Assembly (NCBI GenBank): GCA_947089425.1
Contig: CAMUKG010000009.1
Coordinates: 775 to 64,774, forward strand
Reading direction: 5' to 3'
DNA: 64,000 bases
Source of the DNA: an uncultured Clostridia bacterium
GTDB taxonomy: Bacteria; Bacillota; Clostridia; Christensenellales; Pumilibacteraceae
The notes under the pieces are model-generated. The model made no database searches. It had not been told where the DNA came from and was given only the letters and a program-made list of their open reading frames with translations. Made by a program: the position numbers and the translations under genes. How positions within the stretch are numbered: the first letter of the stretch is position 1; each line of letters begins with the position of its first letter. Below, in pieces: positions 35,830-54,179 of the stretch.

Positions 35830-35859
35830 TTGACAATTGTGTAAAGGTAGATTTATAAT
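35830..35859 (+). promoter_or_regulatory. sigma-A promoter of the fructan operon
   Basis: TTGACA-N18-TATAAT. Confidence 0.8.
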
Positions 35860-35864
35860 GCAAA

Positions 35865-35878
35865 TGGAATCGTTTCCA
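35865..35878. promoter_or_regulatory. LacI-type operator 1
   Basis: TGGAATCGTTTCCA near-palindrome at the predicted +1. Confidence 0.7.
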
Positions 35879-35952
35879 AACAGATATGATTTTTGTTGAA
35901 ACGAAATTTATTTAATTTTTGCAGCGGCACGTTGTATTTGATGAGGTAATTT

Positions 35953-36861
35953 ATGATACTTTGTGTGGGCGAAATTTTGGCGGATATGATAGGAATCGGC
36001 AAAGGCGGTGCGTTTAGTTATGAACGCAAAGCCGGCGGCGCGCCTTTTAATGTAGCTTGCGCTGTAAAAAAGCTCGGTTCGTCAGTAGGTTTTGTAGGGG
36101 CGGTTGGCGATGATATTATAGGCGACTATCTTATTGATTTTGCCGGAGAGCGCGGCTTTGACTACACTCTTATCGAAAAAAGGGAAAACGAGAATACAAC
36201 GCTTGCTTTTGTGAATATAGACGACTCGGGCGAGCGTTCGTTTTGCTTTTATCGCAAAAACACGGCTGACTATTTGTTGCCGAATGTAAGCGAGCGGATA
36301 ATAGAGACATCGAGTATAGTACATATAGGTTCGCTTATGCTGTCGGAAGAAGCGGGACGCAAAACGGCGCTCGCTCTTTGCGAGCGTGCGCACAAAATGG
36401 GCAAAACTGTGAGTTTCGACGTAAATTTTCGTTCGGATATTTTCCGCGACGCCGAAAGCGCGGTTAAGGCGTACAAGAAAATTATAGAATTAGCCGACGT
36501 TTTGAAATTTTCGGAAGACGAAGTTAATATTTTCGGAGAAGAATACGTTTGCGGTTTGACCGACAAACTGATATGCGTAAGCTTAGGTAGCAAGGGAAGT
36601 AGGTGGCAATATAACGGAAAAAGCGAAATTATTTCGTCGGTAAAAGTAAAACCGATAGATACTACCGGAGCGGGCGACGCGTTTTACGGCGGTATTTTGC
36701 ATTGTTTGGACGGAATAAATATAAAAAATCTTACAGTAAAACAGCTGAATGAAATATTGGCTTTTGCCAACGTGTGCGGCGCGCTTAATACTCTTAAAAA
36801 AGGGGCGATAGACGGCTTGCCCGATAAAGACACTGTAGTTCAAACGTTAAGAAAAGCATAA
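35953..36861 (+). CDS. PfkB-family carbohydrate kinase (probable fructokinase)
   Basis: GGAPFNVA, FDVNFR, DTTGAGDAF; lies in a GH32 operon. Confidence 0.85.
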   Translation: MILCVGEILADMIGIGKGGAFSYERKAGGAPFNVACAVKKLGSSVGFVGAVGDDIIGDYLIDFAGERGFDYTLIEKRENENTTLAFVNIDDSGERSFCFYRKNTADYLLPNVSERIIETSSIVHIGSLMLSEEAGRKTALALCERAHKMGKTVSFDVNFRSDIFRDAESAVKAYKKIIELADVLKFSEDEVNIFGEEYVCGLTDKLICVSLGSKGSRWQYNGKSEIISSVKVKPIDTTGAGDAFYGGILHCLDGINIKNLTVKQLNEILAFANVCGALNTLKKGAIDGLPDKDTVVQTLRKA

Positions 36862-36883
36862 ATAAAAATTTTTATGTAAAATT

Positions 36884-36896
36884 TGGAATCGATTCC
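36884..36896. promoter_or_regulatory. LacI-type operator 2
   Basis: T-GGAATCGATTCC (perfect 12-bp palindrome) 14 nt upstream of the large GH32 start. Confidence 0.7.
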
Positions 36897-36910
36897 GTGA
36901 GGTGGAAAAA

Positions 36911-39900
36911 ATGAGTGCGAATAAGCAAGTCGGAAAGTTGAGTTTGTGGTGCATAACGGTTGTTCTTTTTGCGTGCGCTATTGCCGCAACTGTTACGTGC
37001 GCGCCTAAACAAAAGGCGTATGCGGCGCAAATTTCGGTAGAGGGTGCGGGCGACGCGTTCGTGTATTCCGAAGAGAGTTATGAAGCGGACGAAAGCTTTG
37101 CGTATGTTTCTACCGCTTGCTTCGAACGCGGAAATGCCGCAGGGCTTGTGTTCGGCGGCAAAGAAAACGACAGTTGTTTTGTTTTTAACGTAGACAGAGC
37201 GAACAACTTAGTAAAACTTATGTACTTTTACAATATGGCGGAAGATAAAAAAGTTGCGGTGCTTAAAGAAGAATACTATGTGGGAAGCAAGATAATGAAC
37301 GACGGCGAGAAAAGCTACGTGCAAAGCCGTACCGCAAATTTAGATAAAGTGTATTTGAAAGTTACCGTGAACGGCGACGGTACCGCCGAATTTTACGCCG
37401 ACGGAATACGCCGTTTTGCGTTCGTGGACGGAAGCAAACCTGCCGCCGAAATAAATTTGAATTCTTTTAAGCTCGAAGACGAAACTCCGATACGATATGA
37501 CGGCGGACTTTTGGGATATAATTGTTTTAATGCAAAAGTGAGTTTTACCGACACGCTTATAGGCAAAATGGATTACGGATATTACGGAGAGTTATATCGC
37601 AATCAATATCACTTTTCGCAATTTGCGCATTGGAACAACGACCCTAACGGATTGGTGTATTACAACGGATATTATCATTTATATTTTCAACACAATCCTT
37701 ACGGCAATACATGGGATGCAATGCACTGGGGACACGCGCGCAGCACAGATTTGGTGCATTGGGAACTGCTGCCCATAGCTTTGGTGCCCGACCGTGATTT
37801 ATCTGTCGACGTAGGCGCAATGTGGTCGGGTAGCGCAAGAGTTTATCATAAAGGCGACAGCGGCGTAATAGACGGCTATAATTGGTTTGACGCTACCGAT
37901 AAGCAAAAAGGCGACGCTCTCGGTTTAATAGCGTATTACACCCGTTTCGATAATGGAGGCAACAGACATCAAATTTTAGCGTATTCCACCGATGGCGGAC
38001 TTAGTTGGAACAAACGCGATAATATTAAAAGTACGGTATCTCTCGATTTGCAAGGCAATCCCGTAAACGGGGGATCGTGGCGCGACCCGAAAATATTCGA
38101 TATATCCGCTCTCAACGGGGTTGGCGATTACAAATGGGGAATGGCGCTTACCGATATGGAAGACAATACGTTGTTCTTCCTCAAATCCAAAAATCTTGTG
38201 AGTTGGGAACATGCGGGAAGTTATTTCGTTTATCGCCCCGAATGCCCCGACGTGTTTACGCTGTCTACCGACGACGAAACGGAACATACCGTAATAACGT
38301 TTACTTCGCGTTACTACGTAGTGTGCGATTTGGCTTACGAAAACGGCAAAATCGTAATGAAAGAGCCTAAGGCGGATAATCCCGCCACAATCGAAAGATT
38401 GGATAGAAACAGCGAATATTTGCAAATTATGGATTATGGCGTAGATTCGTATGCGGGGCAAACTTTTTACATCGACGCAAATTCCGACAGCGAATATAAA
38501 GGTGAATCGGTGGGGTTGAGCTGGTTTTCGGGTGTTCCGAACGACGATAAGTCGATAGAGAGCGGAGTTTTGCAGACGGCGCGTAAGATATGGAACGGCG
38601 GAGGCATGACCGTTCCGGTGGTTTACGGCTTACGAAAATCGGGCGAAAAATATGTTCTCACGTCTACGCCGATTACCGTAGACAACGAAAGCGATTTTGC
38701 CAAAACGCGACTTAACGGTATAGATGATATAAACGGGCATTGTTTCGAAATATCCGCAACGGTGCAAAACGACGGAGCCGAGCCTGTGTATTTCAGAATA
38801 AACGGCAGTGCGGACGGAACGCGCTATACCGAAATAGGCTGGAATTCGCAGGACGGATATTATGTGGACCGAACTTATACCGAAGACGCCGGCATAAACT
38901 TTCCTTTACCGAATTACGCATGCAAGTACGTTTCGAATATGGGTAAATCGAACAAGACGTTGGAATTTTACATTCTTTCTGACAACGGCGGCGTTGAAGT
39001 GTATTGCGACGGGTTCACCGTTCCGTTCTACATTTTAACGTTTGCTTCACCGTATTCGGTAAAAGCAACGTTTACTGCCGATTCGTCGGCAAACGCGGAA
39101 TTGACTGTAAACGAAATAGCGTCGGTGTGGCGCGGCGAGAGCGAGGAAACGCTAATCAATATTTCGGACATGCAAATAGATTTGGGGGCGGAACTCGGTC
39201 AGTCGCAAATCGTAACGGCATATGCGCAAGGAAAGGAAATTGAGTGGGAAGTCGTGGAAGGTACGGATATTATAGAAGTGAAGCCAACTTCTACGGGCGC
39301 CGAAATCATAGGCAAAAAGGCGGGCTCGGCACGCGTAAAAGTTTCTGCGGGATTGAGCAGCCGAACAATAGACGTAACGGTTCACAGCGGAAAGGCGGAA
39401 AGCGATTTTACTTTTACTACCGACGGTATAGTGTCGGGTAGGTGGTATTATAGCGGCAACTCGCTTATAGGCGAGCAATCGGGCGGCGACGGATTTATTC
39501 TCGCAAACGAGAGCGGCGGAGACTTTACTTATACCGCGCAATTCGATTTGGGAAGCGGAGCGGCCGCCGCGCTTGTGTTCAGAGCTACCGCCGAAAACGG
39601 CAAACTCACGAGCTACCTAATTGCGAATTACGACAATAATTCCAAGATAGTTAAGCTGTGGTCGCAAAACGGAGAGCTCGCTAACGTTCCCGCCGGAAAT
39701 CCGAATATCGAAAATCTTGTGCTTACGGCGGAAACCAAAGGCAAAAACGTGAAAGTGTATCTTAACGGAAACAAGCTTATAGACTGTGTCGTACGCGATA
39801 CCGACCCCGTAAGCGGCAAATTCGGTCTTAACGTATGCGCGACGCGCGCGGCATTTTCGTTGATTACCGTGCAAAAGAGCGAATACGGTTATTCGGGTAG

Positions 39901-40525
39901 CGGCGATTTTGTAATAAAGAGCAGCGTGGAACAGCAAGCTTTGGAAATAGTGAATACCACTCTCGGCAATACGGCTCTTTCGCAAGGTCAGTATGAAACG
40001 GTAGGACGCGAAATAAGAATAAAGCAGAGTTATATCGAATTATTGCCGTCGGCGGGTGAATACAAGTTTGTTATTTACGGTTCCGCGTTTACGTTTACGG
40101 CAAAAGTAATCGTGGAAAGCATACCGCAAACCGAACTTGTCGCCGTTACGGTTGACGAGGGAATAAACGCAACGATATGGCTCGGTAACAGTAACGTTCA
40201 ATACGTGAAAGTGAACGGCGCGGAGCTCGACGCCGGTTTATACAAAATATACGGTTATGTGCTTACGGTTATGCCCGACGCCTTTGAAATAGGAGAAAAC
40301 ACCGTGTCTGTCAACGATACGCAAGTTACGACGGTTACGGTTCGAGAAGTGCCTAAAAATGCGGTTTTAAGCGGCGGCGAGAGCAAAAAGTCGAACGTCG
40401 GTTTGATTGTGGGGCTTAGCGTGGGAATTCCCGTTCCGATTATAGCGACGGCTGTCGTTGCGGTGGTATTGATTTGGCGCAAAAAGAAATCGGCAAACAA
40501 AAACGACTCGGAGAAAAAGGAGTAA
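36911..40525 (+). CDS. Secreted, C-terminally membrane-anchored multidomain GH32 exo-beta-fructosidase/levanase-like enzyme
   Basis: Signal peptide; WNNDPNG, WSGSA, WRDP, ECPD; CBM66-like modules on both sides of the catalytic domain; Ig-like and X2-like segments; terminal TM plus RKKK. Confidence 0.85.
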   Translation: MSANKQVGKLSLWCITVVLFACAIAATVTCAPKQKAYAAQISVEGAGDAFVYSEESYEADESFAYVSTACFERGNAAGLVFGGKENDSCFVFNVDRANNLVKLMYFYNMAEDKKVAVLKEEYYVGSKIMNDGEKSYVQSRTANLDKVYLKVTVNGDGTAEFYADGIRRFAFVDGSKPAAEINLNSFKLEDETPIRYDGGLLGYNCFNAKVSFTDTLIGKMDYGYYGELYRNQYHFSQFAHWNNDPNGLVYYNGYYHLYFQHNPYGNTWDAMHWGHARSTDLVHWELLPIALVPDRDLSVDVGAMWSGSARVYHKGDSGVIDGYNWFDATDKQKGDALGLIAYYTRFDNGGNRHQILAYSTDGGLSWNKRDNIKSTVSLDLQGNPVNGGSWRDPKIFDISALNGVGDYKWGMALTDMEDNTLFFLKSKNLVSWEHAGSYFVYRPECPDVFTLSTDDETEHTVITFTSRYYVVCDLAYENGKIVMKEPKADNPATIERLDRNSEYLQIMDYGVDSYAGQTFYIDANSDSEYKGESVGLSWFSGVPNDDKSIESGVLQTARKIWNGGGMTVPVVYGLRKSGEKYVLTSTPITVDNESDFAKTRLNGIDDINGHCFEISATVQNDGAEPVYFRINGSADGTRYTEIGWNSQDGYYVDRTYTEDAGINFPLPNYACKYVSNMGKSNKTLEFYILSDNGGVEVYCDGFTVPFYILTFASPYSVKATFTADSSANAELTVNEIASVWRGESEETLINISDMQIDLGAELGQSQIVTAYAQGKEIEWEVVEGTDIIEVKPTSTGAEIIGKKAGSARVKVSAGLSSRTIDVTVHSGKAESDFTFTTDGIVSGRWYYSGNSLIGEQSGGDGFILANESGGDFTYTAQFDLGSGAAAALVFRATAENGKLTSYLIANYDNNSKIVKLWSQNGELANVPAGNPNIENLVLTAETKGKNVKVYLNGNKLIDCVVRDTDPVSGKFGLNVCATRAAFSLITVQKSEYGYSGSGDFVIKSSVEQQALEIVNTTLGNTALSQGQYETVGREIRIKQSYIELLPSAGEYKFVIYGSAFTFTAKVIVESIPQTELVAVTVDEGINATIWLGNSNVQYVKVNGAELDAGLYKIYGYVLTVMPDAFEIGENTVSVNDTQVTTVTVREVPKNAVLSGGESKKSNVGLIVGLSVGIPVPIIATAVVAVVLIWRKKKSANKNDSEKKE

Positions 40526-40530
40526 GAAAT

Positions 40531-41499
40531 ATGGCGGCAACAATATCGGACGTTGCAAAATGCGCGGGCGTTGGCATAGGCACCGTGTCGCGCGTGTTGA
40601 ACGGCGGGAAATCGGTAAAAGCGGACAAACGTCAGGCAATCATGCGAGCCATAGAGGAGCTAAACTACACTCCCAACAGTATGGCTAAACGGTTACGCAA
40701 ACAAAAAAACGGTGTAATTGCGCTTATGGTGCCTATTGTAAATCATCCGTTTTTCGCACAATTTACCGATTGTATCGAGCAGGAGGCGGATAAATTCGGT
40801 TATTCGATTTTATTGGTTGCGTCTCAACAACATGCGGAAAAAGAGAATGAAATATTGGATAGAATAGAACGCCGAGAAGTGGATGGCGCAATATTCGTTA
40901 CGCATCATAATCATACGCCCGAGCGTCTTAAAAGTTATCCGCTTGTTTCGGTAGACAGACATCTGGCGGAGGGCGTGGCTTACGTTACGAGCAACAATTA
41001 CGAATCCACAAAAAACGCCGTTGAGTATCTTATAGAGCGAGGTTGTAAAAACATAGGGTATGTAGGCACGAAGCCTCTTGTCGATTCCGAAGTATTATTG
41101 CGCGAAAAAGCGTATCGCGACGTTATGAACGCGCATAATCTTCCGCTCTCGGCGCTCAATGAAGTTGCGGTGCACGGTGATGAAATAACGCTTGTTAACG
41201 AGTTCTTCAAGAAGTTTCCAGACTTAGACGGTGTGTTCGCTTCGGGATACAGCGCCGCTCAATGCGTATGTGAAGTCGCTTTACAAAGCGGAAGAAAAAT
41301 ACCCGACGACCTTCAAATGGTGGCTTACGACGGCAATTTCAAGCAGTGGGGCGGTCGGAACATTACTTGCGTGCAGCAACCAATTGAGAAAATGGCTCAA
41401 TCGGCAGTCAGGCTGTTGATAGACAGAATAAACGGTAAAACCGTGCCTATCCGTACGGTTCACGAAACTAAGTTAATATTAGGTGACACAACCAAGTAA
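40531..41499 (+). CDS. LacI-family transcriptional repressor
   Basis: TISDVAKCAGVGIGTVSRVLN HTH, YTPNSMAKRL hinge, periplasmic-binding-protein fold. Confidence 0.92.
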   Translation: MAATISDVAKCAGVGIGTVSRVLNGGKSVKADKRQAIMRAIEELNYTPNSMAKRLRKQKNGVIALMVPIVNHPFFAQFTDCIEQEADKFGYSILLVASQQHAEKENEILDRIERREVDGAIFVTHHNHTPERLKSYPLVSVDRHLAEGVAYVTSNNYESTKNAVEYLIERGCKNIGYVGTKPLVDSEVLLREKAYRDVMNAHNLPLSALNEVAVHGDEITLVNEFFKKFPDLDGVFASGYSAAQCVCEVALQSGRKIPDDLQMVAYDGNFKQWGGRNITCVQQPIEKMAQSAVRLLIDRINGKTVPIRTVHETKLILGDTTK

Positions 41500-41524
41500 T
41501 AAATAAAAATATAGGAGGCAAAAA

Positions 41525-42887: not shown

Positions 42888-43859
42888 ATGCTAATAGGTG
42901 CTTTGTCGGTTTTTATCGCTATGGCAGCCGCGTTTGGAACGGTGGCTGCGGTAGACGTTGTAAAAGCCAAAAAATACAAAGAAAGATATAGAATAAGAGA
43001 GTGCGGAACGGCTTATCTTATGTTGTTGCCCGCTGTGGCTTTGGCGTTTATTTTCATAGTGTTGCCCATAGTTTATTCGCTCGGGTATGCGTTCACCGAT
43101 TTTCACATGTATTACCCCAACGATATAAAGTTTATAGGGCTTGACAATTTTAAAGAGTTGTTCAGAGAAATCGGCGTAAAGGGCGAATTGTATCACGCAA
43201 TCATAAACACCGCTATATTCGTAGTGTGCGTTGTGCCGTTGCAAATCGGACTTGCGCTCGTGCTCGCTCTGTTTACCAACCGCAAGAAAAAAGGCGTGAA
43301 GATTTTCAAAGTCTGTTTTTTCACGCCGGTAGTAATCTCTCTTACGGTTACGTCGTTTTTGTGGGTGCAAATTCTCGCGCCCAACGCATCGGGGCTTTTG
43401 AATTCTTTTTTAAGCGTTTTCGGTGCGGAGCCTATCGACTTTTTGGCTCAGGAAAAAACGGCGATGCTGTGGATTGTGCTGATGAGCGCCTGGCAGGGTT
43501 GCGGGTATCAAATGCTTATATTCAGTTCGGGGCTTACGAATATACGCGACGATTTATATGAAGCGGCGTCGTTGGACGGAGCGGGTTCTTGGCAAAAGTT
43601 CTTACATATTACGCTTCCCGGTTTGCGCTCTACTTTGCTGTATATCACAATTACCGTATTTGTGGGAGCGTGCAGAGTTATGATACAGCCGATGTTGATG
43701 ACTGATTATAAATTGCATACGGTTACGCTCAGCTATTATATGTATCAACTCGGTTACGGTTCCAAACTCGTAGGACTGTCGTCGGCCGTCGCTCTCATGA
43801 TGACGGTGGTAATAGGCATTATAACTCTGCTTCAACGCAAGTTTTTGAAGGAGGATTGA
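42888..43859 (+). CDS. Carbohydrate ABC transporter permease 1
   Basis: FIGLDNF; DLYEAASLDGAGSWQKFLHITLP EAA motif. Confidence 0.92.
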   Translation: MLIGALSVFIAMAAAFGTVAAVDVVKAKKYKERYRIRECGTAYLMLLPAVALAFIFIVLPIVYSLGYAFTDFHMYYPNDIKFIGLDNFKELFREIGVKGELYHAIINTAIFVVCVVPLQIGLALVLALFTNRKKKGVKIFKVCFFTPVVISLTVTSFLWVQILAPNASGLLNSFLSVFGAEPIDFLAQEKTAMLWIVLMSAWQGCGYQMLIFSSGLTNIRDDLYEAASLDGAGSWQKFLHITLPGLRSTLLYITITVFVGACRVMIQPMLMTDYKLHTVTLSYYMYQLGYGSKLVGLSSAVALMMTVVIGIITLLQRKFLKED

Positions 43860-47324: not shown

Positions 47325-47335
47325 GGAGGGAAGTT

Positions 47336-49909
47336 ATGCGTAAAGCAGTTAATAAAAAATTATTTGCGGCTCTTATAATTGCCGTAATGGCGGCGGCGTC
47401 GCTTGTATTTACGGCTTGCGGCGACAAACCGTCCGTTGCGCAAGAACTGCCCGTAGAAGTAATAAACGGCGGATTCGAAACTGCCGATTTAAGCGGTTGG
47501 ATAGTAGAAAGCGGCGAGGCGTTCGACGACGACAGCGTGTCTTCGCGCAAAACATTTTCGTACGCTTACGATTCGGCGCACAAACAAATTCCGATAAATC
47601 AGACGGGAAACTGGTATCTTGACGGCAAAGGCTACGACGGTAACCGCAGTCACGGGTATACGGGGAGCATACGCTCCAAGAACTTTATGTTAAGCGGCGA
47701 CGGAACCGTTTCGGTTAAGCTCGCGGGCGGCGCGCTCGTGGTGCGCAAAGGAGAAAACGCGCCTCTTAAAAGCAAAGAGAAAATTTGCTACGTGGGCGTG
47801 TACACCGCCGAAAACGATAAGCTTGTGCACAAATTTACCAACTCATATTTTTTCGAGCATACCGAAAACTATGTAAGCGTTGAAGACTATGAAAACGGCA
47901 CTTGCTGTACCGATAATTTTTATCGTTATACCGCAGATTTATCGGAATACGTCGGAAAAGAAATGTACATTCGCATAGTGGATAACGATACCTACGTGTA
48001 TTACGGTTATATTAGCGTTGACGATATTCGCGTGGGCGATGCGGAAGAACAGAGCGAGGGCGTGTACTTCGAAAAGTCGCGCGAGTTTGTGCCTGACGCG
48101 GAAGCGCCGAACAAATACGAAGTAAAAAACGGCGGGTTCGAAACGGGTTCGCTTGCGGGATGGACGGTAGTAAGCGGCGGAGCTTTCTCGCATGACGGGG
48201 TAAATTCGAACGCATATTGGTGGAACGAAAATATACCGTATTGTCGCGACGGCAAATATCATTACGGTTTTTATAAGCCTACCGAAACGGGAGTGTTGCG
48301 TTCAAGCGAGTTTGTGCTTGGCGGCAGCGGATATATAAGTTATAAGTTGGGCGGTTGCCGCAACAACGAGCTTACGTATTTGCGTTTTATGGTAAAGAAC
48401 GGCGATACAGCCGAAGAAGTGGCTCGCTATTCCAACTTCAAATTTTGGAACTATCAATTCCCGTACGTGCAGAACGGGTTGCGTATGCTCAATCTTGTGC
48501 AGTATTACGCCGACTTTTCCGCATATCTCGGCAGAACTATGTATATAGAAGTCGTAGACGAAAACACTTCGTCCGATGACACCGACTGCATAACGCTCGA
48601 CAGCGTGCAAACGTATTGGGAGAGTAAGCCGCAGTGGTACAACAGCATAGCTTTTGAGGCAAAAGTCAATCCCGATTCGATAGATATCGAACCCGACAGT
48701 CCGTATCAGCTTAAAAACGGCACGTTTGAAACGGGTGATTTGACGGGTTGGACGCTTGACGGCAACATAGGCGTGGTGTCTTCCGATTACGGTTGGTGGA
48801 ACGAGAATTTCCCGTACAATAAAAAAGGAAGATACCTGTTTACGGGTATAGCGCACGAAGGCGAAAAGGGAACGCTTACGAGCGACGCGTTCGAACTCGG
48901 CGGCATAGGAGTGATTTCGTTCCGTATGGGCGGCGGCGCAAATCCCAAACAAATTTATGTTTCGGTACTTAACGCCGACAACGGCGAGGAACTCGCGCGG
49001 TTTGCCAACGTCAAATTCTCCGATAAGAATACTGCGGGAATCAACGTAAACAGCTTTTTGGCGAATATGGTGCAGTATAAAGTCGATTTGACCGAGCTTG
49101 GAATTGCGCTCGGCACGAACATTAAGTTGCAAGTGGTGGATAACGCGGTAGCCTACTGGGGACTTGTTACGGTTGACAGCTTTATCACGTACTACGAAAA
49201 TGAAGAGCAAGTGCCTAAAAAAGCTTTTACGGCTGAAAATATAAAACCGGAGACCGACGCCGTATTCGGAGAAAACGATTCTCATCAAATCCTTAACGGC
49301 AATTTCGAAACGGGCGATTTGACGGGGTGGAGCGTAACGAGCGGCAACGTTAATTCAAACATAGCCGTTCAAGCCGCGACTACGTTTTGGAACGAAGACC
49401 TTCCGTATAACAAAGGCGGCATGATGCATTTTGACGGGTGGAAAGCCAACGGCGACGAAGCGGCATCGTATTCGTTGCGCTCCGAAGATTTTACGCTCGG
49501 AGGCAGCGGCGTGATATCGTTTAAGATGGGCGGTAAAACGGCTGAACTCAAAGTGTATAAAGCGGACGGGACTTTGATTGCCGCTTATGCCAATACGGCG
49601 TTTGCCGATATAAATTTCCCCAAAGTTGACGACGGTTGCCGCCTTGCAACCATGACTACGTTCGTTGCCGATTTGAGCGAATACAAAGGGCAGGAGCTTT
49701 ATGTGGAAATTTGCGACCGACCGTTTAAAGACGGCGAAACGGGTTGGGGCGTTGCATTCTTCGATGAAATCATTACTTATTACAAAACCGCGCCAGTCGT
49801 GGAAGAAATGTTCGATACCGTCGAACTTAATTCGCAAACGGCTTTGGGCGGCGTTGCAAAAAGTTACGATATTTCTTGGGAAGTTGCGGTGAATACCGTA
49901 AAAAAATAA
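47336..49909 (+). CDS. Non-catalytic lipoprotein with four tandem CBM38-like modules
   Basis: Lipobox FTAC; NGxFETxxLxGW repeats at about 47465, 48128, 48716 and 49295, each with L.S..F.L.G.G..S.K.GG-type and YIEVVD-type motifs; no GH32 catalytic motif. Confidence 0.7.
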   Translation: MRKAVNKKLFAALIIAVMAAASLVFTACGDKPSVAQELPVEVINGGFETADLSGWIVESGEAFDDDSVSSRKTFSYAYDSAHKQIPINQTGNWYLDGKGYDGNRSHGYTGSIRSKNFMLSGDGTVSVKLAGGALVVRKGENAPLKSKEKICYVGVYTAENDKLVHKFTNSYFFEHTENYVSVEDYENGTCCTDNFYRYTADLSEYVGKEMYIRIVDNDTYVYYGYISVDDIRVGDAEEQSEGVYFEKSREFVPDAEAPNKYEVKNGGFETGSLAGWTVVSGGAFSHDGVNSNAYWWNENIPYCRDGKYHYGFYKPTETGVLRSSEFVLGGSGYISYKLGGCRNNELTYLRFMVKNGDTAEEVARYSNFKFWNYQFPYVQNGLRMLNLVQYYADFSAYLGRTMYIEVVDENTSSDDTDCITLDSVQTYWESKPQWYNSIAFEAKVNPDSIDIEPDSPYQLKNGTFETGDLTGWTLDGNIGVVSSDYGWWNENFPYNKKGRYLFTGIAHEGEKGTLTSDAFELGGIGVISFRMGGGANPKQIYVSVLNADNGEELARFANVKFSDKNTAGINVNSFLANMVQYKVDLTELGIALGTNIKLQVVDNAVAYWGLVTVDSFITYYENEEQVPKKAFTAENIKPETDAVFGENDSHQILNGNFETGDLTGWSVTSGNVNSNIAVQAATTFWNEDLPYNKGGMMHFDGWKANGDEAASYSLRSEDFTLGGSGVISFKMGGKTAELKVYKADGTLIAAYANTAFADINFPKVDDGCRLATMTTFVADLSEYKGQELYVEICDRPFKDGETGWGVAFFDEIITYYKTAPVVEEMFDTVELNSQTALGGVAKSYDISWEVAVNTVKK

Positions 49910-49929
49910 TTGAATGAGAGGGTAGAAAA

Positions 49930-52725
49930 ATGAAAAGAGCAATTAAAAGACTGTCGGTTATTGTGATGTCGCTTGTAATCGTGTTTTCGGTTGCCGTATT
50001 TGTTGCGGCTTGCGGTGACAAAAACAACGACAATCCCCCTGCAAACGAACAAACCGAACCGGTAAAAATCAAAGACGGCGAGGCGATAAGTCTTACGGTA
50101 GAGGAAGAGTGTAAGAGCATAATCATAGCCGATTATGTTACGGTGAACGGAAATAACGTAACGGTTGCGTCATCGGCTCCCGATATAGCGACGGCTACGC
50201 TTACGGACGGAGTAGTTACGGTAAACGCCGTTAAAAAAGGAACGGCAACGGTAACGGTTACGTGCGGCAATGTGGAAATTGCGTTTGCTGTTACGGTGTC
50301 CGAAAAGTCTGTTGCTCCGCCTGCGACGGTCGAGTATACCGTTTCGCTCAACGGCGAGGAAAGCACGGTTGAAGAAAACGGAATTTTCACGTTGCCCGAA
50401 TCCTTTACTCCCGAAGATGAAGATTTCGAGTTTGTACGTTGGAATATAGTGGGCGACCATGAAATAAGCGGTAATAAAGTGACCGTTCTCGGCGATTTAA
50501 CGATTACCGCCGAAACGCTCAGGAAAGGGGCGGAGAAAATCAAAGACGGCAATTCGCTTACTTTCACAGTCGGCGACGCCGCAAAGACTGTAACCGTAGC
50601 GGAATATATAACGACGCACGGCAATGACGTTTCTGCGAATTCCGATACGCCCGCCGTCGCAACGGCTACGCTTACGGACGGAGTAGTTACGGTAAACGCC
50701 GTTAAAAAAGGAACGGCAACGATAACGGTTACGTGCGGCAATGTGGAAATTACGTTTGCGGTCACGGTTGGCGATGCTACGCAAATTACGACTCCGTCGG
50801 TAAAGAATGCCGAAGTCGTAATTTCGGAAACGCACGATTTGTATTCGGGCGATTATACCGTTGATTTGGCGGAGAATATCGAACTTGCGAACCTTATAAC
50901 GGGTTATATGGTAAATTCGGAGTCTGTTGACGGTACAACGTATTCTATAAGCGGCGACACGTACACGCAAACGCCCACGCTTGTTACTTTAAACGTAACG
51001 GCGACTTACAATGGCGGCTCTGTAAACTATGTATACAAGGTAAATATAATCGATACTACGGCATACCGTATACGCAACGGCGGATTCGACGACGGACTCG
51101 ACGGTTGGCAAAAGATAGGGCAAATCGGCAATATCAGCGAAGCTACGGCGTATTGGACTAACGACAACGACGGTAACGGATATTCATATAACGCCGACGG
51201 CAAATTCTTTTCGGCATACGAACCTTCCGACAGGTTTGAAAGCAATATAGGAGCGCTTATCAGTTCGCCGTTTAAAGTGTCGCAAAACGGAATTATAACG
51301 TTTAAACTCGGCGGCGCAAAGCACGATATATTTGTTGACGTAGTAGATACCGAAAACGGCGAAATAATCGCGCGTTACGGCAACAGCGCGTGGGCGGAGA
51401 CTACCGACAATTTAAAGAGCGGTTGCACGCTTATCGCCTATAAAGCGACGTTACCCGCAAGCGCGGTTGAAAAGACGGTGTACATTCGCGTTATAGATAT
51501 GGCGCAATCCGATTACGGCGTACTGTTTTGCGATTCGTTCGTTACGTATTACGAGAGCGCGCCCGAGAGCGGTATCGACGCGGTGGATATAACCGACCGC
51601 CCCGCGACCGTATACGAATTATATAACGGCGGATTCGAGCAGGATATGAAAGGTTGGGTTATTTCGGGCGGAGATATCGGTGCCGTGACTGCCGATAAAG
51701 GTTGTTTTAACAACGGTGACCCTAACGACACTACTAAGGCTTACGGTCAGGAAGACTCAAAACTTTTCTCGTTTTGGAGTTGGAACGAAGCGGAAAACAA
51801 AGAATACAATCGCGAGGGCAATCTCGGCACGCTTACAAGCAATATGTTTGTTTTAAAGCCGAATAAATTCGTATCGTTCAAGTTTGGCGGCGGAAAAAAC
51901 CGTAACGTATTTATAGAACTCGTTAATGCCGAAAGCGGAACGGTTATCGCGATATTCCGTAATGACAACGTTGTTGAGGGAAATGAAAGCGCGCTTGTAA
52001 GTTATAGTTATGCGCCTACAACAGCCGAGCTTTCCGCCGATGCTCTGTGTTACTTCCGCGTAGTAGACAACGCCGTAACCGATTGGGGATGCTTTACCGC
52101 CGACGCGTTTAAAGTTAACCTCGACAGTGCGCCTACGGATAGCGCTCTCGCGGTTAATTGTTTGAGCGAATATAAGTCGTTGATAAACGGCAGTTTCGAA
52201 GACGGCAATCTTAACGGGTGGACCGCTCCCGCCGGAAATGCTCTCGGTGCGGTGGTGAATACCGAAAAATCGGAGAGTTGGTATCAGACCAACGAAAGCA
52301 CGAAAGACGGTAACTGGTTATTTACGTTCTACATTCCGAACTGGGGAGATAGTAACAATAAAGAAAAAGGAACGGGCGTTATTCGTTCGAGCGCGTTTAT
52401 CCTTGATAAGAACGGCATTGTATCTTTCCGTTTCGGCGCGGCGCATAATAGGGAGGTATATATAAACGTTTACACAACGGGCGGAAGACTTTTGGCGACG
52501 TTCCGTAACAATGCCTTTACCGAAGCTACCGTTATGGTACAGTATTACTATCAATTTGATAATGCCGAAGAACTGTCTTGCTACTTTGAGATTGTAGATA
52601 ATGCGGAAAAGGATTACGGGTGCATTGTTATGGACGACTTCCGCGTAAACCTCGAAGCTGCGCCTAACGGAGCGATTCTCGGCAGTTCGCTTACAAAAGC
52701 GGAACGAGACCAAGCAAATAATTAA
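49930..52725 (+). CDS. Non-catalytic lipoprotein: two Ig-like (Big_2) domains, linker domains and three CBM38-like modules
   Basis: Lipobox VAAC; duplicated ATATLTDGVVTVNAVKKGTAT; NGGF/NGSF modules at about 51076, 51625 and 52186. Confidence 0.7.
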   Translation: MKRAIKRLSVIVMSLVIVFSVAVFVAACGDKNNDNPPANEQTEPVKIKDGEAISLTVEEECKSIIIADYVTVNGNNVTVASSAPDIATATLTDGVVTVNAVKKGTATVTVTCGNVEIAFAVTVSEKSVAPPATVEYTVSLNGEESTVEENGIFTLPESFTPEDEDFEFVRWNIVGDHEISGNKVTVLGDLTITAETLRKGAEKIKDGNSLTFTVGDAAKTVTVAEYITTHGNDVSANSDTPAVATATLTDGVVTVNAVKKGTATITVTCGNVEITFAVTVGDATQITTPSVKNAEVVISETHDLYSGDYTVDLAENIELANLITGYMVNSESVDGTTYSISGDTYTQTPTLVTLNVTATYNGGSVNYVYKVNIIDTTAYRIRNGGFDDGLDGWQKIGQIGNISEATAYWTNDNDGNGYSYNADGKFFSAYEPSDRFESNIGALISSPFKVSQNGIITFKLGGAKHDIFVDVVDTENGEIIARYGNSAWAETTDNLKSGCTLIAYKATLPASAVEKTVYIRVIDMAQSDYGVLFCDSFVTYYESAPESGIDAVDITDRPATVYELYNGGFEQDMKGWVISGGDIGAVTADKGCFNNGDPNDTTKAYGQEDSKLFSFWSWNEAENKEYNREGNLGTLTSNMFVLKPNKFVSFKFGGGKNRNVFIELVNAESGTVIAIFRNDNVVEGNESALVSYSYAPTTAELSADALCYFRVVDNAVTDWGCFTADAFKVNLDSAPTDSALAVNCLSEYKSLINGSFEDGNLNGWTAPAGNALGAVVNTEKSESWYQTNESTKDGNWLFTFYIPNWGDSNNKEKGTGVIRSSAFILDKNGIVSFRFGAAHNREVYINVYTTGGRLLATFRNNAFTEATVMVQYYYQFDNAEELSCYFEIVDNAEKDYGCIVMDDFRVNLEAAPNGAILGSSLTKAERDQANN
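50191..50751 (+). repeat. 90-bp intragenic direct repeat (50191-50280 and 50662-50751)
   Basis: 89/90 identical by manual alignment; encodes Ig-like beta-strands. Confidence 0.9.
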
Positions 52726-52745
52726 AAACAAGGACAATTTAAGTT

Positions 52746-54089
52746 ATGGCATATGAACAAATAAGACCTGTATTTCATATTACGGGCGGAAACGGTTGGA
52801 TAAACGACCCCAACGGATTGGTTAAATTTAACGGCGAATATCATGTATTCTATCAGTATTATGCCGAAGCGACTTATTGGGGGCCCATGCATTGGGGACA
52901 CGTTAAAAGCAAGGATTTGACGCATTGGGAAAGACTCCCCGTTGCAATCCGTCCCGACGAACAGGACGACGGTTGCTTTTCGGGTAGCGCCATAGTTCAC
53001 AACGGCAAAATGTGGCTTATGTACACAAGCTACAAAAAAAACGACGGCGGAGTAAGCGAACGGCAACTGCAAGCGCTTGCTTCGTCGGACGACGGCGTAT
53101 ACTTCTTTAAGCATGGCATAGTGATAGGCGAGGACGATTTGCCCGAAGGATACTGTGCTTGGAGTTTCCGCGACCCTAAGCTTTTGCGTGTAAACGATAT
53201 GTTTTACTGTTTTGTTGCCGCCAAAAAGCGCGAGGGGAATGGCAGAATTCTTTTATACAAATCCGTTGATTTGTTTAAGTGGACTTTTGTGTGCGACGTA
53301 ACCGACCGCGATAACGGAGGCAAAATGGTTGAGTGTCCCGATTACTGTACTCAACTCGGACTGCTTACATACAGCGAACAGTTTCAACCGCACGAGGGGA
53401 ATACGCACCTAAATATCCATAGTGCGTTCGCTCAATTCGGTACGTTTGACTTTAATAAACCTTTTGTTCCCGACAGTAAGCGGCAAATTATCGATTACGG
53501 GTTTGATTTTTACGCTTCGCAGTCGTTTGCCGAAGAGCCGATTATGATAGGCTGGTTGGGCATGTGGGACAGAAACTATCCTTGCGCAAAATACGGCTTT
53601 GCCGGTATGCTTACCGTTCCGCGTCGTTTGCAAAGAGTGGGAGACGAGCTCGTTCAAACGCCTATATATACCGCTAAAAAGGTGTGCGAAAAGTCGGTGA
53701 AAGGCAAATTGACAGACAATATATCGGTGGGCGCGGTTCGTTTCGAGCTCAACGGTTTGCGAGCGTTCGATTTGAAAATGCGCAAGTCGGGCGACGAATA
53801 TGCCGAATTTACGCTTTCGGGCAACGAGTGGGTGTTTAACCGCTCTCGTTGCGGTGCGCAAATTGTGGGGGCGGAGGAAGACGACGATTCGCTTGCGGGA
53901 ATTCGCCGTATGCCTTATCGCTACGCTCAAACCGATACCGTTGAAATCGTCTTCGACTTATTTTCGGTTGAAATTTTCGTGAACGGTAAAGCTCTGTCGT
54001 CTACGCTGTATCCCGCCCCCTCCGCCGACGGACTCGAACTGACTGTTGATTGCAACTCTTGTACCTATACTCGCTACGAAATCGAATAA
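52746..54089 (+). CDS. Cytoplasmic GH32 beta-fructofuranosidase / sucrose-6-phosphate hydrolase-like
   Basis: WINDPNG, CFSGSA, FRDP, ECPD, DYGFDFYA; no signal peptide. Confidence 0.88.
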   Translation: MAYEQIRPVFHITGGNGWINDPNGLVKFNGEYHVFYQYYAEATYWGPMHWGHVKSKDLTHWERLPVAIRPDEQDDGCFSGSAIVHNGKMWLMYTSYKKNDGGVSERQLQALASSDDGVYFFKHGIVIGEDDLPEGYCAWSFRDPKLLRVNDMFYCFVAAKKREGNGRILLYKSVDLFKWTFVCDVTDRDNGGKMVECPDYCTQLGLLTYSEQFQPHEGNTHLNIHSAFAQFGTFDFNKPFVPDSKRQIIDYGFDFYASQSFAEEPIMIGWLGMWDRNYPCAKYGFAGMLTVPRRLQRVGDELVQTPIYTAKKVCEKSVKGKLTDNISVGAVRFELNGLRAFDLKMRKSGDEYAEFTLSGNEWVFNRSRCGAQIVGAEEDDDSLAGIRRMPYRYAQTDTVEIVFDLFSVEIFVNGKALSSTLYPAPSADGLELTVDCNSCTYTRYEIE

Positions 54090-54148
54090 ATTCAAATTAG
54101 AACGGACTACAAAAAACGGTTGCCGCTTTTAAACGGCTGTTGCAACGA

Positions 54149-54179
54149 AAAAAGGCGAATGCAAATGCTTCGCCTTTTT
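54149..54179 (+). terminator. Terminator of the fructan operon
   Basis: AAAAAGGCGA / TCGCCTTTTT arms. Confidence 0.75.

What the first reader, a model, noticed from the sequence alone, without database searches (positions are those of the whole stretch)
35830..54179. Complete Gram-positive fructan-utilisation locus resembling a Bacteroides PUL
Seen: one promoter, two operators and one terminator bracket ten genes: kinase, anchored exo-GH32, LacI, ABC SBP and two permeases, an endo/transferase-type GH32 lipoprotein, two binding-only lipoproteins and a cytoplasmic GH32. Inference: surface capture, then endo cleavage or cyclisation, then import, intracellular hydrolysis and phosphorylation, i.e. 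a selfish inulin/levan strategy in a probably uncultured gut clostridium.
Basis: partly seen in the sequence, partly recalled or inferred. Interest (0 to 1): 0.7.

Follow-up and report, generated by a model that had tools for sequence, protein, structure and literature searches.

The report
Gut Clostridia fructan locus, split fructanotransferase-like
This is a real ten-gene operon for eating plant fructans in an uncultured mouse-gut Clostridia bacterium; its surface enzyme and two "binding-only" lipoproteins together correspond to the separated parts of a known soil-bacterial inulin-cyclising enzyme, and the same cassette is conserved in about 80 gut species that nobody has studied.

Summary
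Ten co-directional, tightly packed genes lie between a perfect sigma-70 promoter (35830-35859) and a hairpin terminator (54149-54179). Two copies of a LacI-type palindrome are present.

- a PfkB fructokinase-like kinase;
- a 1,204-aa surface GH32 with CBM66;
- LacI;
- a lipoprotein SBP and two permeases;
- a LamG+GH32 lipoprotein;
- two non-catalytic repeat lipoproteins;
- a cytoplasmic GH32.

Corrections:
- The big GH32 is held by a C-terminal membrane helix, not an LPXTG signal.
- The window encodes no ABC ATPase.

New findings:
- The GH32 lipoprotein (g7) aligns end to end (35% identity, E 1e-134) with the catalytic core of characterised cycloinulo-oligosaccharide fructanotransferases (CFTases). 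It shares their Glu nucleophile.
- The repeats of g8 and g9 are homologous to the CFTase N-terminal repeats that define CBM38, an inulin/levan-binding module.
- The locus is therefore a CFTase-like machine split into separate lipoproteins.
- Gene order is conserved in the ~80 species-level gut MAG loci retrieved.
- A Paenibacillus CFTase locus has the same logic.

Best reading: an inulin-type fructan Gram-positive PUL with endo cleavage at the surface. Cyclisation and "selfishness" are unproven. It is a new variant of a known kind.

The parts
35830..35859 (+). Sigma-70-type promoter, TTGACA-18 nt-TATAAT
   Evidence: 12/12 consensus match, the only one in 35200-55000. A-rich tract upstream.
35865..35878 (.). 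Operator O1, LacI-family palindrome TGGAATCGTTTCCA, 6 nt downstream of the -10 box
   Evidence: Exact match to TGGAAWCGWTTCCA. The same palindrome is conserved beside the cassette in distant relatives.
35953..36861 (+). g1: PfkB-family sugar kinase, fructokinase-like (302 aa)
   Evidence: PF00294 E 1e-47. Best NCBIfam hit is fructokinase NF006957, E 2e-57, below its cut-off. 36% identical to the kinase half of the PfkB-GH32 fusion in the P. polymyxa CFTase locus.
36884..36897 (.). Operator O2, TGGAATCGATTCCG, between the g1 stop and the g2 ribosome-binding site
   Evidence: 1 mismatch to the palindrome. Together with O1 it is the only match with <=1 mismatch in 64 kb.
36911..40525 (+). g2: surface GH32 (canonical NDPNG/RDP/EC). 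It has a signal peptide, an N-terminal CBM66-like domain, a Big_2-like spacer, CBM66 (aa 844-995 of the 1207-aa ORF) and a C-terminal TM anchor. Predicted exo-fructanase.
   Evidence: GH32N E 2e-49 and GH32C E 1e-9. PDB best hits are exo-inulinases 8i12 and 1y4w; SacC CBM66 4azz gives E 1.4e-11. The N-terminal domain is weakly similar to CBM66. C-terminal helix present, no LPXTG. ORF from GTG 36902; the likelier start is ATG 36911.
40531..41499 (+). g3: LacI-family repressor (322 aa from ATG 40531)
   Evidence: LacI HTH E 3e-17 plus Peripla_BP domains. Orthologues are 321-322 aa. 32% identical to the LacI of the P. polymyxa CFTase locus.
41525..42862 (+). g4: lipoprotein solute-binding protein of a CUT1-type sugar ABC importer
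   Evidence: SBP_bac_8 and SBP_bac_1. Lipobox SFAAC, conserved in 67/71 orthologues. No close solved relative, so the ligand is unknown.
42888..43859 (+). g5: ABC permease (MalF/UgpA-like)
   Evidence: BPD_transp_1; NCBIfam hits.
43861..44772 (+). g6: ABC permease (MalG/UgpE-like)
   Evidence: BPD_transp_1; NCBIfam hits.
44793..47324 (+). g7: lipoprotein with Laminin_G_3 + GH32, Glu nucleophile (WMNEPHS, E326), RDP (D458) and EC (E518). Homologue of the CFTase catalytic core. Predicted endo-acting inulin-type fructanase or fructanotransferase.
   Evidence: Pfam. Lipobox FSGC. WMNEPH[SA] in 76/77 orthologues. 35% identity over aa 45-820 to B. circulans CFTase residues 570-1308, E 1e-134. PDB best hits are only 122-143 bits.
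47321..49909 (+). g8: lipoprotein made of four ~180-aa CBM38-type beta-sandwich modules; no catalytic domain
   Evidence: Repeats at aa ~45-245, 266-445, 462-640 and 655-830. Model pLDDT 86.5. 37% identity over 543 aa to CFTase residues 58-542. Over 1000 homologues, all unnamed.
49930..52725 (+). g9: lipoprotein with two Big_2-containing modules (an internal duplication) followed by three CBM38-type modules
   Evidence: Big_2. Repeats at aa ~379-555, 562-740 and 749-915. 30% identity to the CFTase repeats. 119-nt direct repeat 50179-50297 / 50650-50768.
52746..54089 (+). g10: cytoplasmic GH32 beta-fructofuranosidase (ScrB/BfrA-like, canonical NDPNG)
   Evidence: GH32N E 6e-79, no signal peptide. 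PDB 7vco E 2e-66 and T. maritima 1uyp E 6e-57.
54149..54179 (+). Intrinsic terminator-like hairpin flanked by an A-run and a T-run (could act in both directions)
   Evidence: -16.3 kcal/mol, z -3.8, 0/200 shuffles as stable. Sequence.

Best explanation
A LacI-controlled operon lets an uncultured mouse-gut Clostridia bacterium (Christensenellales-like) use inulin-type and mixed plant fructans. It fits the published definition of a Gram-positive PUL.

Proposed mechanism (only sequence features are shown; the roles are inferred):
1. The repressor g3 binds the two palindromes O1 (over the transcription start) and O2 (before g2). An intracellular fructose-containing sugar relieves it.
2. The lipoproteins g8 (4 CBM38-type modules) and g9 (3 modules on Ig-like spacers) hold the polymer at the membrane surface. 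The CBM66 domain(s) of g2 help.
3. The lipoprotein g7 cuts beta-2,1 chains internally into oligosaccharides. Its LamG+GH32 core is homologous to cycloinulo-oligosaccharide fructanotransferases and shares their Glu nucleophile. The products are most likely linear.
4. The membrane-anchored g2 trims chain ends and branches.
5. g4-g6 import the oligosaccharides, powered by a shared ATPase encoded elsewhere.
6. g10 hydrolyses them in the cytoplasm and g1 phosphorylates the fructose.

In soil bacilli the parts found in g7, g8 and g9 are fused in one secreted enzyme. Here they are separate lipoproteins.
For: Gene content and domains.

Regulatory signals. The operator is conserved in relatives.

Synteny: the order g2-g3-g4-g5-g6-g7-g8-(g9)-g10 is kept in the ~80 species-level MAG loci retrieved, at 33-92% protein identity.

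g7:
- 35% identity, 426 bits, E 1e-134 over aa 45-820 to the characterised B. circulans CFTase (UniRef O52973). 34% identity to the P. polymyxa CFTase.
- The Glu nucleophile motif is invariant in 76/77 orthologues. g2 and g10 keep Asp.
- Glu is the nucleophile of the endo-inulinases INU2 and Arthrobacter S37 (PMC5245892, PMC5984348).

g8/g9 repeats:
- A profile of the repeat hits the CFTase N-terminal repeats at E 1e-64 to 4e-67. That region defines CBM38 and binds inulin/levan (PMC10076258).
- GH32 is the only glycoside hydrolase family fused to this repeat among the long family members.
- The fold is a beta-jelly-roll nearest to known CBMs.

Other evidence:
- CBM66 in g2.
- Lipoboxes conserved.
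- The P. polymyxa CFTase locus has the same parts: LacI, ABC importer, fructokinase, cytoplasmic Asp-type GH32.
- Mouse-gut origin.
- Low-level RNA contigs over all ten genes.
Against: - No activity, binding or induction has been measured for any protein of this clade except the distant CFTases.
- 35% identity does not fix product type or linkage specificity.
- Against solved structures, g7 scores best with exo-acting Bifidobacterium beta-fructofuranosidases and plant invertases. It does not score best with endo-inulinase 3rwk.
- The SBP has no characterised close relative.
- CBM66 and the spread of the cassette in grass-eating animals would also fit levan or graminan.
- The palindromes are two mismatches from the CcpA cre consensus (my comparison), so they might be cre sites.
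- RNA contigs also cover the flanks and may include DNA.
- No ATPase gene is present.
Confidence: 0.7

Rival explanations
1. Cyclisation model. g7, helped by g8/g9, is a true cycloinulo-oligosaccharide fructanotransferase. It converts inulin at the cell surface into cyclic DP6-8 fructans that only the producer can import. This would be a fructan counterpart of the cyclodextrin pathway.
For: - The only characterised proteins I identified by direct alignment as relatives of g7 are CFTases.
- The CBM38-type repeats that accompany CFTases are encoded next door.
- The Paenibacillus CFTase locus has the same overall logic.
Against: - CFTases carry WMNEAHA, while g7 and all its orthologues carry WMNEPH[SA]. 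That motif is shared with the cytoplasmic, non-CFTase paralogue in Paenibacillus.
- The Paenibacillus locus includes an intracellular Glu-type LamG-GH32 that could open rings. The window locus has only an Asp-type exo-like GH32 (g10), which should not attack a ring without ends (inference).
- Identity is only 35%.
Confidence: 0.15
2. Short-sugar or exo model. The locus serves sucrose, raffinose or short FOS. g7 is an ordinary exo-beta-fructofuranosidase or a catalytically dead binder. g8/g9 are adhesins or scaffolds unrelated to fructan.
For: - The best solved-structure matches of g7 are exo-acting enzymes.
- Foldseek neighbours of the repeat include gingipain adhesin and MAM domains.
- Simple GH32+ABC+LacI loci for FOS are common.
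Against: - Three GH32 genes, two of them surface-exposed, plus CBM66 and seven CBM38-type modules argue for a polymer.
- The repeat is fused only to GH32 among glycoside hydrolases and is homologous to an experimentally inulin-binding region.
- RDP and the acid/base Glu are conserved in g7.
- Glu nucleophiles are active in endo-inulinases.
Confidence: 0.1
3. Sub-claim rival. The two palindromes are catabolite-responsive (cre) sites bound by a global CcpA-like regulator, rather than operators of the locus-encoded LacI g3.
For: - The sites resemble the cre consensus TGWAANCGNTNWCA with two mismatches (my comparison).
- g3 itself scores E 1.6e-40 with the ccpA model, although far below its cut-off.
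Against: - Exact copies of TGGAAWCGWTTCCA appear 7 times in 1.56 Mb of related loci, where about 0.02 are expected. Each lies next to the cassette, upstream of g2 or of the kinase.
- No other site with <=1 mismatch exists in the 64-kb window.
Confidence: 0.2

Closest known systems
Cycloinulo-oligosaccharide fructanotransferase (CFTase, GH32) of Bacillus (Niallia) circulans (UniRef O52973, 1503 aa) and Paenibacillus polymyxa (1333 aa), with its locus
   Same: - g7 is collinear with the CFTase LamG+GH32 core (35% identity, E 1e-134). [quoted passage not shown]
- The g8/g9 modules are homologous to the CFTase N- and C-terminal repeats.
- The P. polymyxa locus also holds LacI, an SBP with two permeases, a fructokinase and a cytoplasmic Asp-type GH32.
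   Different: - Here the catalytic core and the binding repeats are separate lipoproteins, not one secreted polypeptide.
- The motif is WMNEPHS, not WMNEAHA.
- There is no intracellular Glu-type LamG-GH32.
- There is an extra membrane-anchored exo-type GH32 with CBM66.
- The host is an anaerobic gut Clostridia MAG, not an aerobic soil bacillus.
- Cyclising activity is untested.
CBM38 (inulin/levan-binding module defined on Paenibacillus macerans CFTase residues 32-389)
   Same: - The repeat profile built from g8/g9 matches the equivalent region of the P. polymyxa CFTase (73-257, E 4e-67; 260-367) and of the B. circulans CFTase (56-239, 242-423).
- CBM38 is described as two beta-sandwich domains (PMC10076258). 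That matches two ~180-aa repeats.
   Different: - The modules stand alone in non-catalytic lipoproteins, as arrays of 4 and 3. None of 168 repeat-bearing ORFs in the related gut loci is fused to GH32.
- The P. macerans reference sequence and the dbCAN CBM38 model were not available.
- Binding is untested.
Fructan Gram-positive PULs Eub-3/Eub-4 of Eubacterium rectale and Roseburia inulinivorans (Sheridan et al. 2016, PMC5320581)
   Same: GH32 + ABC transporter + LacI + fructokinase. Eub-4's GH32 carries CBM66. The window locus meets the same gpPUL definition.
   Different: - Those loci are listed with GH32 as their only CAZyme family and no stand-alone binding proteins. The paper states that polysaccharide binding is expected to rest on CBMs within enzymes.
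- The window locus has three GH32s, two of them at the surface, plus two dedicated binding lipoproteins.
Bacteroides thetaiotaomicron fructan PUL (surface endo-levanase BT1760, surface glycan-binding protein, SusC/D, periplasmic GH32, fructokinase)
   Same: The division of labour is the same: a surface lipoprotein endo-enzyme, non-catalytic surface binding lipoproteins, a dedicated importer, internal exo-GH32 and fructokinase. This is a comparison of logic. BT1760 is described in PMC5245892 and PMC6560043. The rest rests on established knowledge of this PUL.
   Different: - No SusC/SusD; an ABC importer instead.
- LacI instead of a hybrid two-component sensor.
- BT1760 uses an Asp nucleophile and is only distantly related to g7 (E 2e-10).
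- The binding proteins are unrelated in sequence.
Endo-inulinases with a Glu nucleophile (Aspergillus ficuum INU2, PDB 3RWK; Arthrobacter sp. S37 EnIA)
   Same: - WMNEP motif with a catalytic Glu.
- The catalytic residue numbers reported for the Arthrobacter enzyme (E323, D460, E519) nearly coincide with g7's (E326, D458, E518). This suggests the same N-terminal extension, but that is inference from numbering only.
   Different: - INU2 is a weak match (E 4e-20, rank 20 against the PDB).
- g7 has PHS where endo-inulinases have PNG.
Bacillus subtilis exo-levanase SacC with CBM66
   Same: g2 combines a canonical GH32 with a domain matching SacC CBM66 (PDB 4azz, E 1.4e-11).
   Different: g2 is far larger. 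It has a second CBM66-like domain, Ig-like spacers and a C-terminal membrane anchor.

Membership tests
Gram-positive PUL (gpPUL; Sheridan 2016) | At least one polysaccharide-degrading enzyme | tested here: met
   Three GH32 genes above the Pfam cut-offs. Definition quoted.
Gram-positive PUL (gpPUL; Sheridan 2016) | A linked carbohydrate transport system | tested here: met
   SBP plus two permeases. The ATPase is not in the locus or the window.
Gram-positive PUL (gpPUL; Sheridan 2016) | A linked transcriptional regulator | tested here: met
   LacI-family g3 with two conserved palindromes.
Bacteroidetes PUL | Adjacent SusC-like TonB-dependent transporter and SusD-like lipoprotein | tested here: not met
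   No such domains in any of the ten proteins. The large SRP RNA and MAG labels point to Firmicutes.
GH32 (g2, g10) | Five-bladed propeller plus beta-sandwich domains with the NDPNG nucleophile, RDP and EC motifs | tested here: met
   Pfam GH32N/C. Motifs seen in the sequence and in orthologues.
GH32 (g7) | Same domains and catalytic triad | tested here: met
   GH32N E 4e-51 and GH32C E 2e-13. RDP and EC are present. The nucleophile position holds Glu instead of Asp in 76/77 orthologues, as in the CFTases and endo-inulinases that belong to GH32.
CFTase (EC 2.4.1.248) | Sequence homology to the LamG+GH32 core of characterised CFTases | tested here: met
   35% identity, E 1e-134, over g7 aa 45-820 against O52973 residues 570-1308.
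CFTase (EC 2.4.1.248) | CBM38 repeats in the same polypeptide as the catalytic core | tested here: not met
   g7 has no repeat. 0 of 168 repeat-bearing ORFs in the related gut loci carry GH32. The repeats are in g8 and g9.
CFTase (EC 2.4.1.248) | Nucleophile motif WMNEAHA, as seen in the CFTases examined | tested here: not met
   g7 and its orthologues have WMNEPH[SA]. It is not established that this motif decides cyclisation.
CFTase (EC 2.4.1.248) | Intramolecular transfructosylation giving cycloinulo-oligosaccharides | not testable with these tools
   Needs an enzyme assay with product analysis.
CBM38 | Homology to the N-terminal repeat region of CFTase (P. macerans residues 32-389) | tested here: met
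   The repeat HMM hits P. polymyxa CFTase 73-257 (E 4e-67) and 260-367, and B. circulans CFTase 56-239 and 242-423 (E 1e-64). Region defined in PMC10076258. The test used orthologues, not the P. macerans protein or the dbCAN model.
CBM38 | Binds inulin/levan | not testable with these tools
   Needs ITC or affinity electrophoresis with g8/g9 modules.
CBM66 (g2 aa 844-995) | Sequence match to the SacC C-terminal module | tested here: met
   PDB 4azz/4b1l/4b1m, E 1e-11. Pfam PF06439 scores 24.3 bits, just below its 26.8 cut-off.
Endo-inulinase (EC 3.2.1.7) | Glu nucleophile in a WMNEPNG-type motif | tested here: inconclusive
   WMNEP is present, but followed by HS, not NG. The overall match to INU2 is weak.
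Endo-inulinase (EC 3.2.1.7) | Random internal cleavage of beta-2,1 fructan | not testable with these tools
   Needs product analysis.
Bacterial lipoproteins (g4, g7, g8, g9) | Signal peptide ending in a lipobox Cys | tested here: met
   FAAC, FSGC, FTAC and VAAC. The Cys is invariant in 60 g8 homologues. The pattern is found in 67/71, 65/77, 75/87 and 23/30 orthologues.
Sortase-anchored surface protein (g2) | LPXTG-type motif before the C-terminal hydrophobic segment | tested here: not met
   No motif in g2. 3 of 69 orthologues match a loose pattern.
'Selfish' polysaccharide use | Little or no release of breakdown products to the medium | not testable with these tools
   Needs culture or labelled-glycan uptake experiments.

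The most novel reading that the evidence does not exclude
Uncultured gut Clostridia, and some Bacilli-labelled MAGs, carry a CFTase-type fructan machine taken apart into membrane-tethered pieces: a Glu-nucleophile catalytic lipoprotein plus free-standing CBM38-array lipoproteins. These may assemble at the surface next to an ABC importer. That would be a Gram-positive counterpart of the Bacteroides utilisome. It might convert dietary inulin into cyclic or defined-length oligosaccharides that only the producer can import.
Probability: 0.15. Interest if true: 0.8.

Novelty: new variant of a known kind. Interest (0 to 1): 0.55.

Why it matters
Inulin and related fructans are the most widely used prebiotics. 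Their breakdown in Firmicutes is understood only for simple single-GH32 loci.

This cassette is conserved in roughly 80 species-level genomes from mouse, human, chicken, rabbit and ruminant guts, and none of them is cultured or studied. It offers three things:
- A candidate endo-acting or transferase fructan enzyme family in gut anaerobes, with a Glu nucleophile.
- The first case I could find of CBM38-type modules used as stand-alone surface glycan-binding lipoproteins. The original gpPUL paper assumed that Firmicutes lack this role.
- A testable link between soil CFTase loci and gut fructan use.

If the products are special (cyclic or of fixed length), this would change how competition for prebiotics is viewed. 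It would also offer enzymes for making defined fructo-oligosaccharides.

Tried and rejected
- **New CBM family for g8/g9.** Sequence searches of g8, g9 and a repeat profile against the PDB gave nothing useful. Pfam and NCBIfam gave only sub-threshold LTD, CBM_4_9 and NTTRR-F1 hits. I first took the repeat for a new CBM family. I dropped that once the library-wide profile search and the CFTase comparison showed CBM38 homology.
- **Structure search.** Foldseek on the full and single-repeat models confirmed a CBM-like jelly-roll but named no fructan binder. This is consistent with no CBM38 structure appearing among the matches.
- **Sortase anchoring of g2.** Rejected.
- **ATPase.** I looked for the ABC ATPase across the window and found none.
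- **Fructotransferase of the levan (DFA-IV) type.** Rejected for g7: 4fff is its weakest GH32 match.
- **Transcript evidence.** RNA contigs from mouse metatranscriptomes show scattered low coverage only. They cannot show induction or transcript ends.
- **Rfam.** No leader RNA in the locus.
- **Literature.** Searches for Christensenellales/Christensenellaceae with GH32 or fructan found no description of this cassette. The original CFTase papers (PMC92681, PMC168824) are not held.

Full report

Yes. Between 35.8 and 54.2 kb there are ten + strand ORFs with gaps of 1-49 nt.

Pfam and NCBIfam assign them as follows:
- g1: PfkB kinase. The best named model is fructokinase, but below its cut-off.
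- g2: GH32 N- and C-domains, with a weak 3-keto-disaccharide-hydrolase/DUF1080 hit.
- g3: LacI.
- g4: solute-binding protein.
- g5 and g6: two BPD_transp_1 permeases.
- g7: Laminin_G_3 + GH32.
- g8 and g9: two large proteins without any catalytic domain.
- g10: GH32 without a signal peptide.

The regulatory signals are also there.
- The promoter TTGACA-18-TATAAT at 35830-35859 is the only 12/12 match in the scan.
- A palindrome TGGAATCGTTTCCA lies 6 nt behind the -10 box. A second copy, TGGAATCGATTCCG, lies between the g1 stop and the g2 ribosome-binding site. These are the only sites with at most one mismatch in the 64-kb window.
- The hairpin at 54149-54179 folds at -16.3 kcal/mol (z -3.8) and is followed by a T-run.

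Flanks. The flanking genes are housekeeping genes: M1 peptidase and amidase upstream, and a convergent arginine operon downstream. The block is therefore a discrete unit.

- g2 ends in a hydrophobic helix plus a basic tail but has no LPXTG. The same holds for its orthologues.
- g2 probably starts at ATG 36911, and LacI at ATG 40531.
- No ABC ATPase is encoded anywhere in the window. Sugar importers of this type in Firmicutes are known to share an ATPase encoded elsewhere (MsmK/MsmX); this is established knowledge.

**2. Where does it come from, and is it conserved?**

The stretch is found almost word for word in mouse gut metagenomes and in one ENA assembly.

A scan of species-representative genomes with a g8 alignment found 129 related places. 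The best 80 are all in MAGs from mouse, chicken, rabbit, sheep, goat, deer, buffalo, reindeer and human guts. Most are labelled Clostridia, Eubacteriales or Christensenella; some are labelled Bacilli, Erysipelotrichaceae or Anaeroplasma.

The order g2-g3-g4-g5-g6-g7-g8-(g9)-g10 is kept in essentially all loci long enough to show it, at 33-92% protein identity. g9 is the variable member: it can be absent, single or duplicated. The kinase sits at either end.

The operator palindrome recurs exactly seven times in 1.56 Mb of these loci, where about 0.02 are expected. It lies upstream of g2, or in front of the kinase gene in the Bacilli-type loci.

This is a conserved cassette, not a chance cluster.

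**3. What are the parts?**

g2. It has the canonical NDPNG/RDP/EC motifs. Its best solved relatives are exo-inulinases. Residues 844-995 match the CBM66 of B. subtilis SacC (E 1e-11). Its N-terminal domain is weakly similar to that CBM66.

g10. It resembles sucrose-6-phosphate hydrolase and the Thermotoga beta-fructosidase, so it is a cytoplasmic exo-beta-fructofuranosidase.

g4, g7, g8 and g9. They have lipoboxes that are conserved in orthologues.

g7. This is the interesting enzyme.
- In 76 of 77 orthologues the nucleophile motif reads WMNEPH[SA]. That is Glu where nearly all GH32 enzymes, including g2 and g10, have Asp. RDP and the acid/base Glu are kept.
- The literature ties a Glu nucleophile to the endo-inulinases INU2 (E43) and Arthrobacter S37 (E323).
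- Against solved structures, g7 matches best the exo-acting Bifidobacterium enzymes and plant invertases (122-143 bits). It matches INU2 only weakly.
- None of its >500 database homologues carries an informative name.

g8 and g9.
- They consist of four and three copies of a ~180-aa module starting with NGGFETGDLTGW.
- There is no sequence match in the PDB.
- AlphaFold models are confident: pLDDT 86.5 for the whole of g8 and 93.3 for one repeat.
- The fold is a beta-jelly-roll. Its nearest solved neighbours are carbohydrate-binding modules: a porphyran CBM, then CBM61, 27, 22, 16, 4 and 6. Adhesin and MAM domains follow.

**4. The link to CFTases**

A profile of the repeat, searched against 1.84 billion representative proteins, found 2,031 clusters at E<=1e-3.
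- Among the 28 longest of the 150 best hits, GH32 is the only glycoside hydrolase family present. It occurs in 7 proteins, and Laminin_G_3 also occurs in 7.
- In the 147 newly returned hits I could re-scan, 11 are GH32 fusions, and seven of those carry the WMNEPH[ASG] motif.
- These fusions come from cultured Paenibacillus, Caldicellulosiruptor (Anaerocellum), Halalkalibacter and Guptibacillus.
- One of them, P0263, is 61% identical to the 1,503-aa protein UniRef O52973 of Niallia (Bacillus) circulans. It is also 61% identical to a 1,333-aa P. polymyxa protein that NCBI names cycloinulo-oligosaccharide fructanotransferase.

Direct comparison then shows two things.

(a) The repeat HMM built from the window hits the CFTase N-terminal repeats and one C-terminal repeat:

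| CFTase | Region hit | E-value |
|---|---|---|
| P. polymyxa | 73-257 | 4e-67 |
| P. polymyxa | 260-367 | 1e-16 |
| B. circulans | 56-239 | 5e-64 |
| B. circulans | 242-423 | 4e-64 |
| B. circulans | 424-530 | 1e-16 |

According to PMC10076258, CBM38 was defined on residues 32-389 of the P. macerans CFTase. It consists of two beta-sandwich domains and binds inulin/levan with micromolar affinity. The g8/g9 modules are therefore CBM38-type modules.

(b) g7 aligns from residue 45 to 820 with residues 570-1308 of the B. circulans CFTase. This covers its LamG, propeller and sandwich domains, at 35% identity, 426 bits and E 1e-134. The key motifs line up as follows:

| Motif | g7 | B. circulans CFTase |
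|---|---|---|
| Nucleophile | WMNEPHS | WMNEAHA |
| Transition-state stabiliser | FRDPFVWYD | FRDPFVWYD |
| Acid/base | WEC | WEL |

So g7 + g8 + g9 correspond to the catalytic core and the binding repeats of a CFTase-type enzyme, encoded as three separate lipoproteins.

**5. Comparison with the Paenibacillus locus**

In P. polymyxa CP042272 the CFTase gene is preceded by the following genes:
- a LacI gene;
- two permeases;
- a lipoprotein SBP;
- a PfkB-GH32(Asp) fusion;
- a cytoplasmic LamG-GH32 with WMNEPHA, which is 34% identical to g7 over its full length.

The logic is the same as in the window locus: regulator, ABC import, fructokinase and an intracellular exo-type GH32.

Two differences bear on mechanism.
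- The gut locus lacks an intracellular Glu-type enzyme that could open rings.
- g7 carries the EPH motif of the non-CFTase paralogue and of the SLH-anchored fusions, not the EAH motif of the CFTases.

I therefore favour linear products (endo-inulinase-like action) over cyclisation. I keep cyclisation as a live rival at about 15%.

**6. Mechanism proposed**

Shown:
- domain content;
- motifs;
- lipoboxes;
- synteny;
- operator conservation;
- homology to CFTase core and repeats.

Inferred:
- g3 represses at O1/O2.
- g8/g9 and the CBM66 of g2 bind the polymer.
- g7 cuts beta-2,1 chains internally.
- g2 trims ends and branches.
- g4-g6 import oligosaccharides.
- g10 and g1 finish the job.

Mouse metatranscriptome contigs at >=99% identity touch all ten genes at low depth. 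This is compatible with expression, but it says nothing about induction or transcript ends.

The substrate could include levan or graminan. CBM66 binds terminal fructose of levan-type chains (citing Cuskin 2012). The cassette is also common in grass-eating animals.

**7. Comparison with what is known; novelty**

- The locus meets the published gpPUL definition.
- It is not a Bacteroidetes PUL, because it has no SusC/D.
- Known fructan gpPULs (Eub-3/4) list GH32 as their only CAZyme family and have no separate binding proteins. The authors assumed that binding rests on CBMs inside enzymes.
- GH32, CBM66, CBM38 and CFTase are all known families.
- What is new is the arrangement: a CFTase-like core and CBM38 arrays as separate lipoproteins next to an ABC importer, plus a second surface GH32. 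This is conserved across many uncultured gut species.
- I found no paper describing it.

I rate it a new variant of a known kind, of moderate interest. It would rank higher if the products prove to be cyclic or if the lipoproteins form a complex.

**8. Verdict**

| Item | Verdict |
|---|---|
| Observation | Confirmed |
| Confidence in the general function (fructan utilisation gpPUL) | About 0.85 |
| Confidence in the specific mechanism as stated | About 0.7 |

Noticed in passing
window 35280-35552 (- strand): A 90-aa ORF is a fragment of a serine recombinase/resolvase N-terminal domain (PF00239 positions 15-83 of 145, E 4e-13). It lies directly upstream of the locus promoter. It may be a remnant of the element that brought the cassette in.
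   Followed up: no
L068, L073, L075, L079-L084 and L078 (Bacilli-, Erysipelotrichaceae- and 'Firmicutes CAG:449'-labelled MAGs): The same cassette, at 46-55% identity for g8, occurs in MAGs labelled as a different class. There it lacks g9, and in most of these loci a kinase gene lies after g10. In L068, L073, L079, L080, L083 and L084 the palindrome TGGAAACGTTTCCA lies downstream of g10, ahead of the kinase gene where one follows. This suggests horizontal spread between gut lineages.
   Followed up: partly
L059, L072, L074, L080: Contigs carrying the cassette sit in bins labelled Akkermansia muciniphila, Coriobacteriaceae, Lachnospiraceae and Hallerella. These are more likely mis-binned contigs than true hosts.
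   Followed up: no
L086 7537-9810 (Paenibacillus polymyxa CP042272): Next to the CFTase gene there is a cytoplasmic LamG+GH32 paralogue with a Glu nucleophile (WMNEPHA) and a PfkB-GH32 fusion protein. The former is a candidate for the enzyme that opens imported cyclofructans. I did not find it described.
   Followed up: partly
window 50179-50297 and 50650-50768 (inside g9): A 119-nt direct repeat, 92% identical, spaced 471 nt apart. It reflects a recent internal duplication of the Big_2-containing module of g9.
   Followed up: partly
window 54325-54368: A second, stronger hairpin (19 bp stem, -31.2 kcal/mol, z -7.0) lies between the fructan operon and the convergent GNAT/arginine genes. It is probably their terminator. 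The 140 nt between the two hairpins hold no ORF.
   Followed up: no
window 23927-24192 (- strand): Large bacterial SRP RNA (Rfam RF01854, 169.5 bits). It is the only Rfam match in the window and is consistent with a Firmicutes host.
   Followed up: no
window 54399-59168 (- strand): A GNAT acetyltransferase is followed by genes with ornithine carbamoyltransferase, aminotransferase class III, amino-acid kinase and semialdehyde dehydrogenase domains. This is an arginine biosynthesis operon convergent with the fructan operon.
   Followed up: no
P0241 (3900 aa) and P0244 (3220 aa): Giant proteins carry 6-10 CBM38-type repeats. P0241 also has FIVAR domains, which suggests very large surface fructan-binding proteins in other bacteria.
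   Followed up: no
L004/L005 18.8-23.3 kb: One relative has a second fructan module immediately downstream: a divergent LacI, an unknown 457-aa protein, a 978-aa GH32 and another permease.
   Followed up: no
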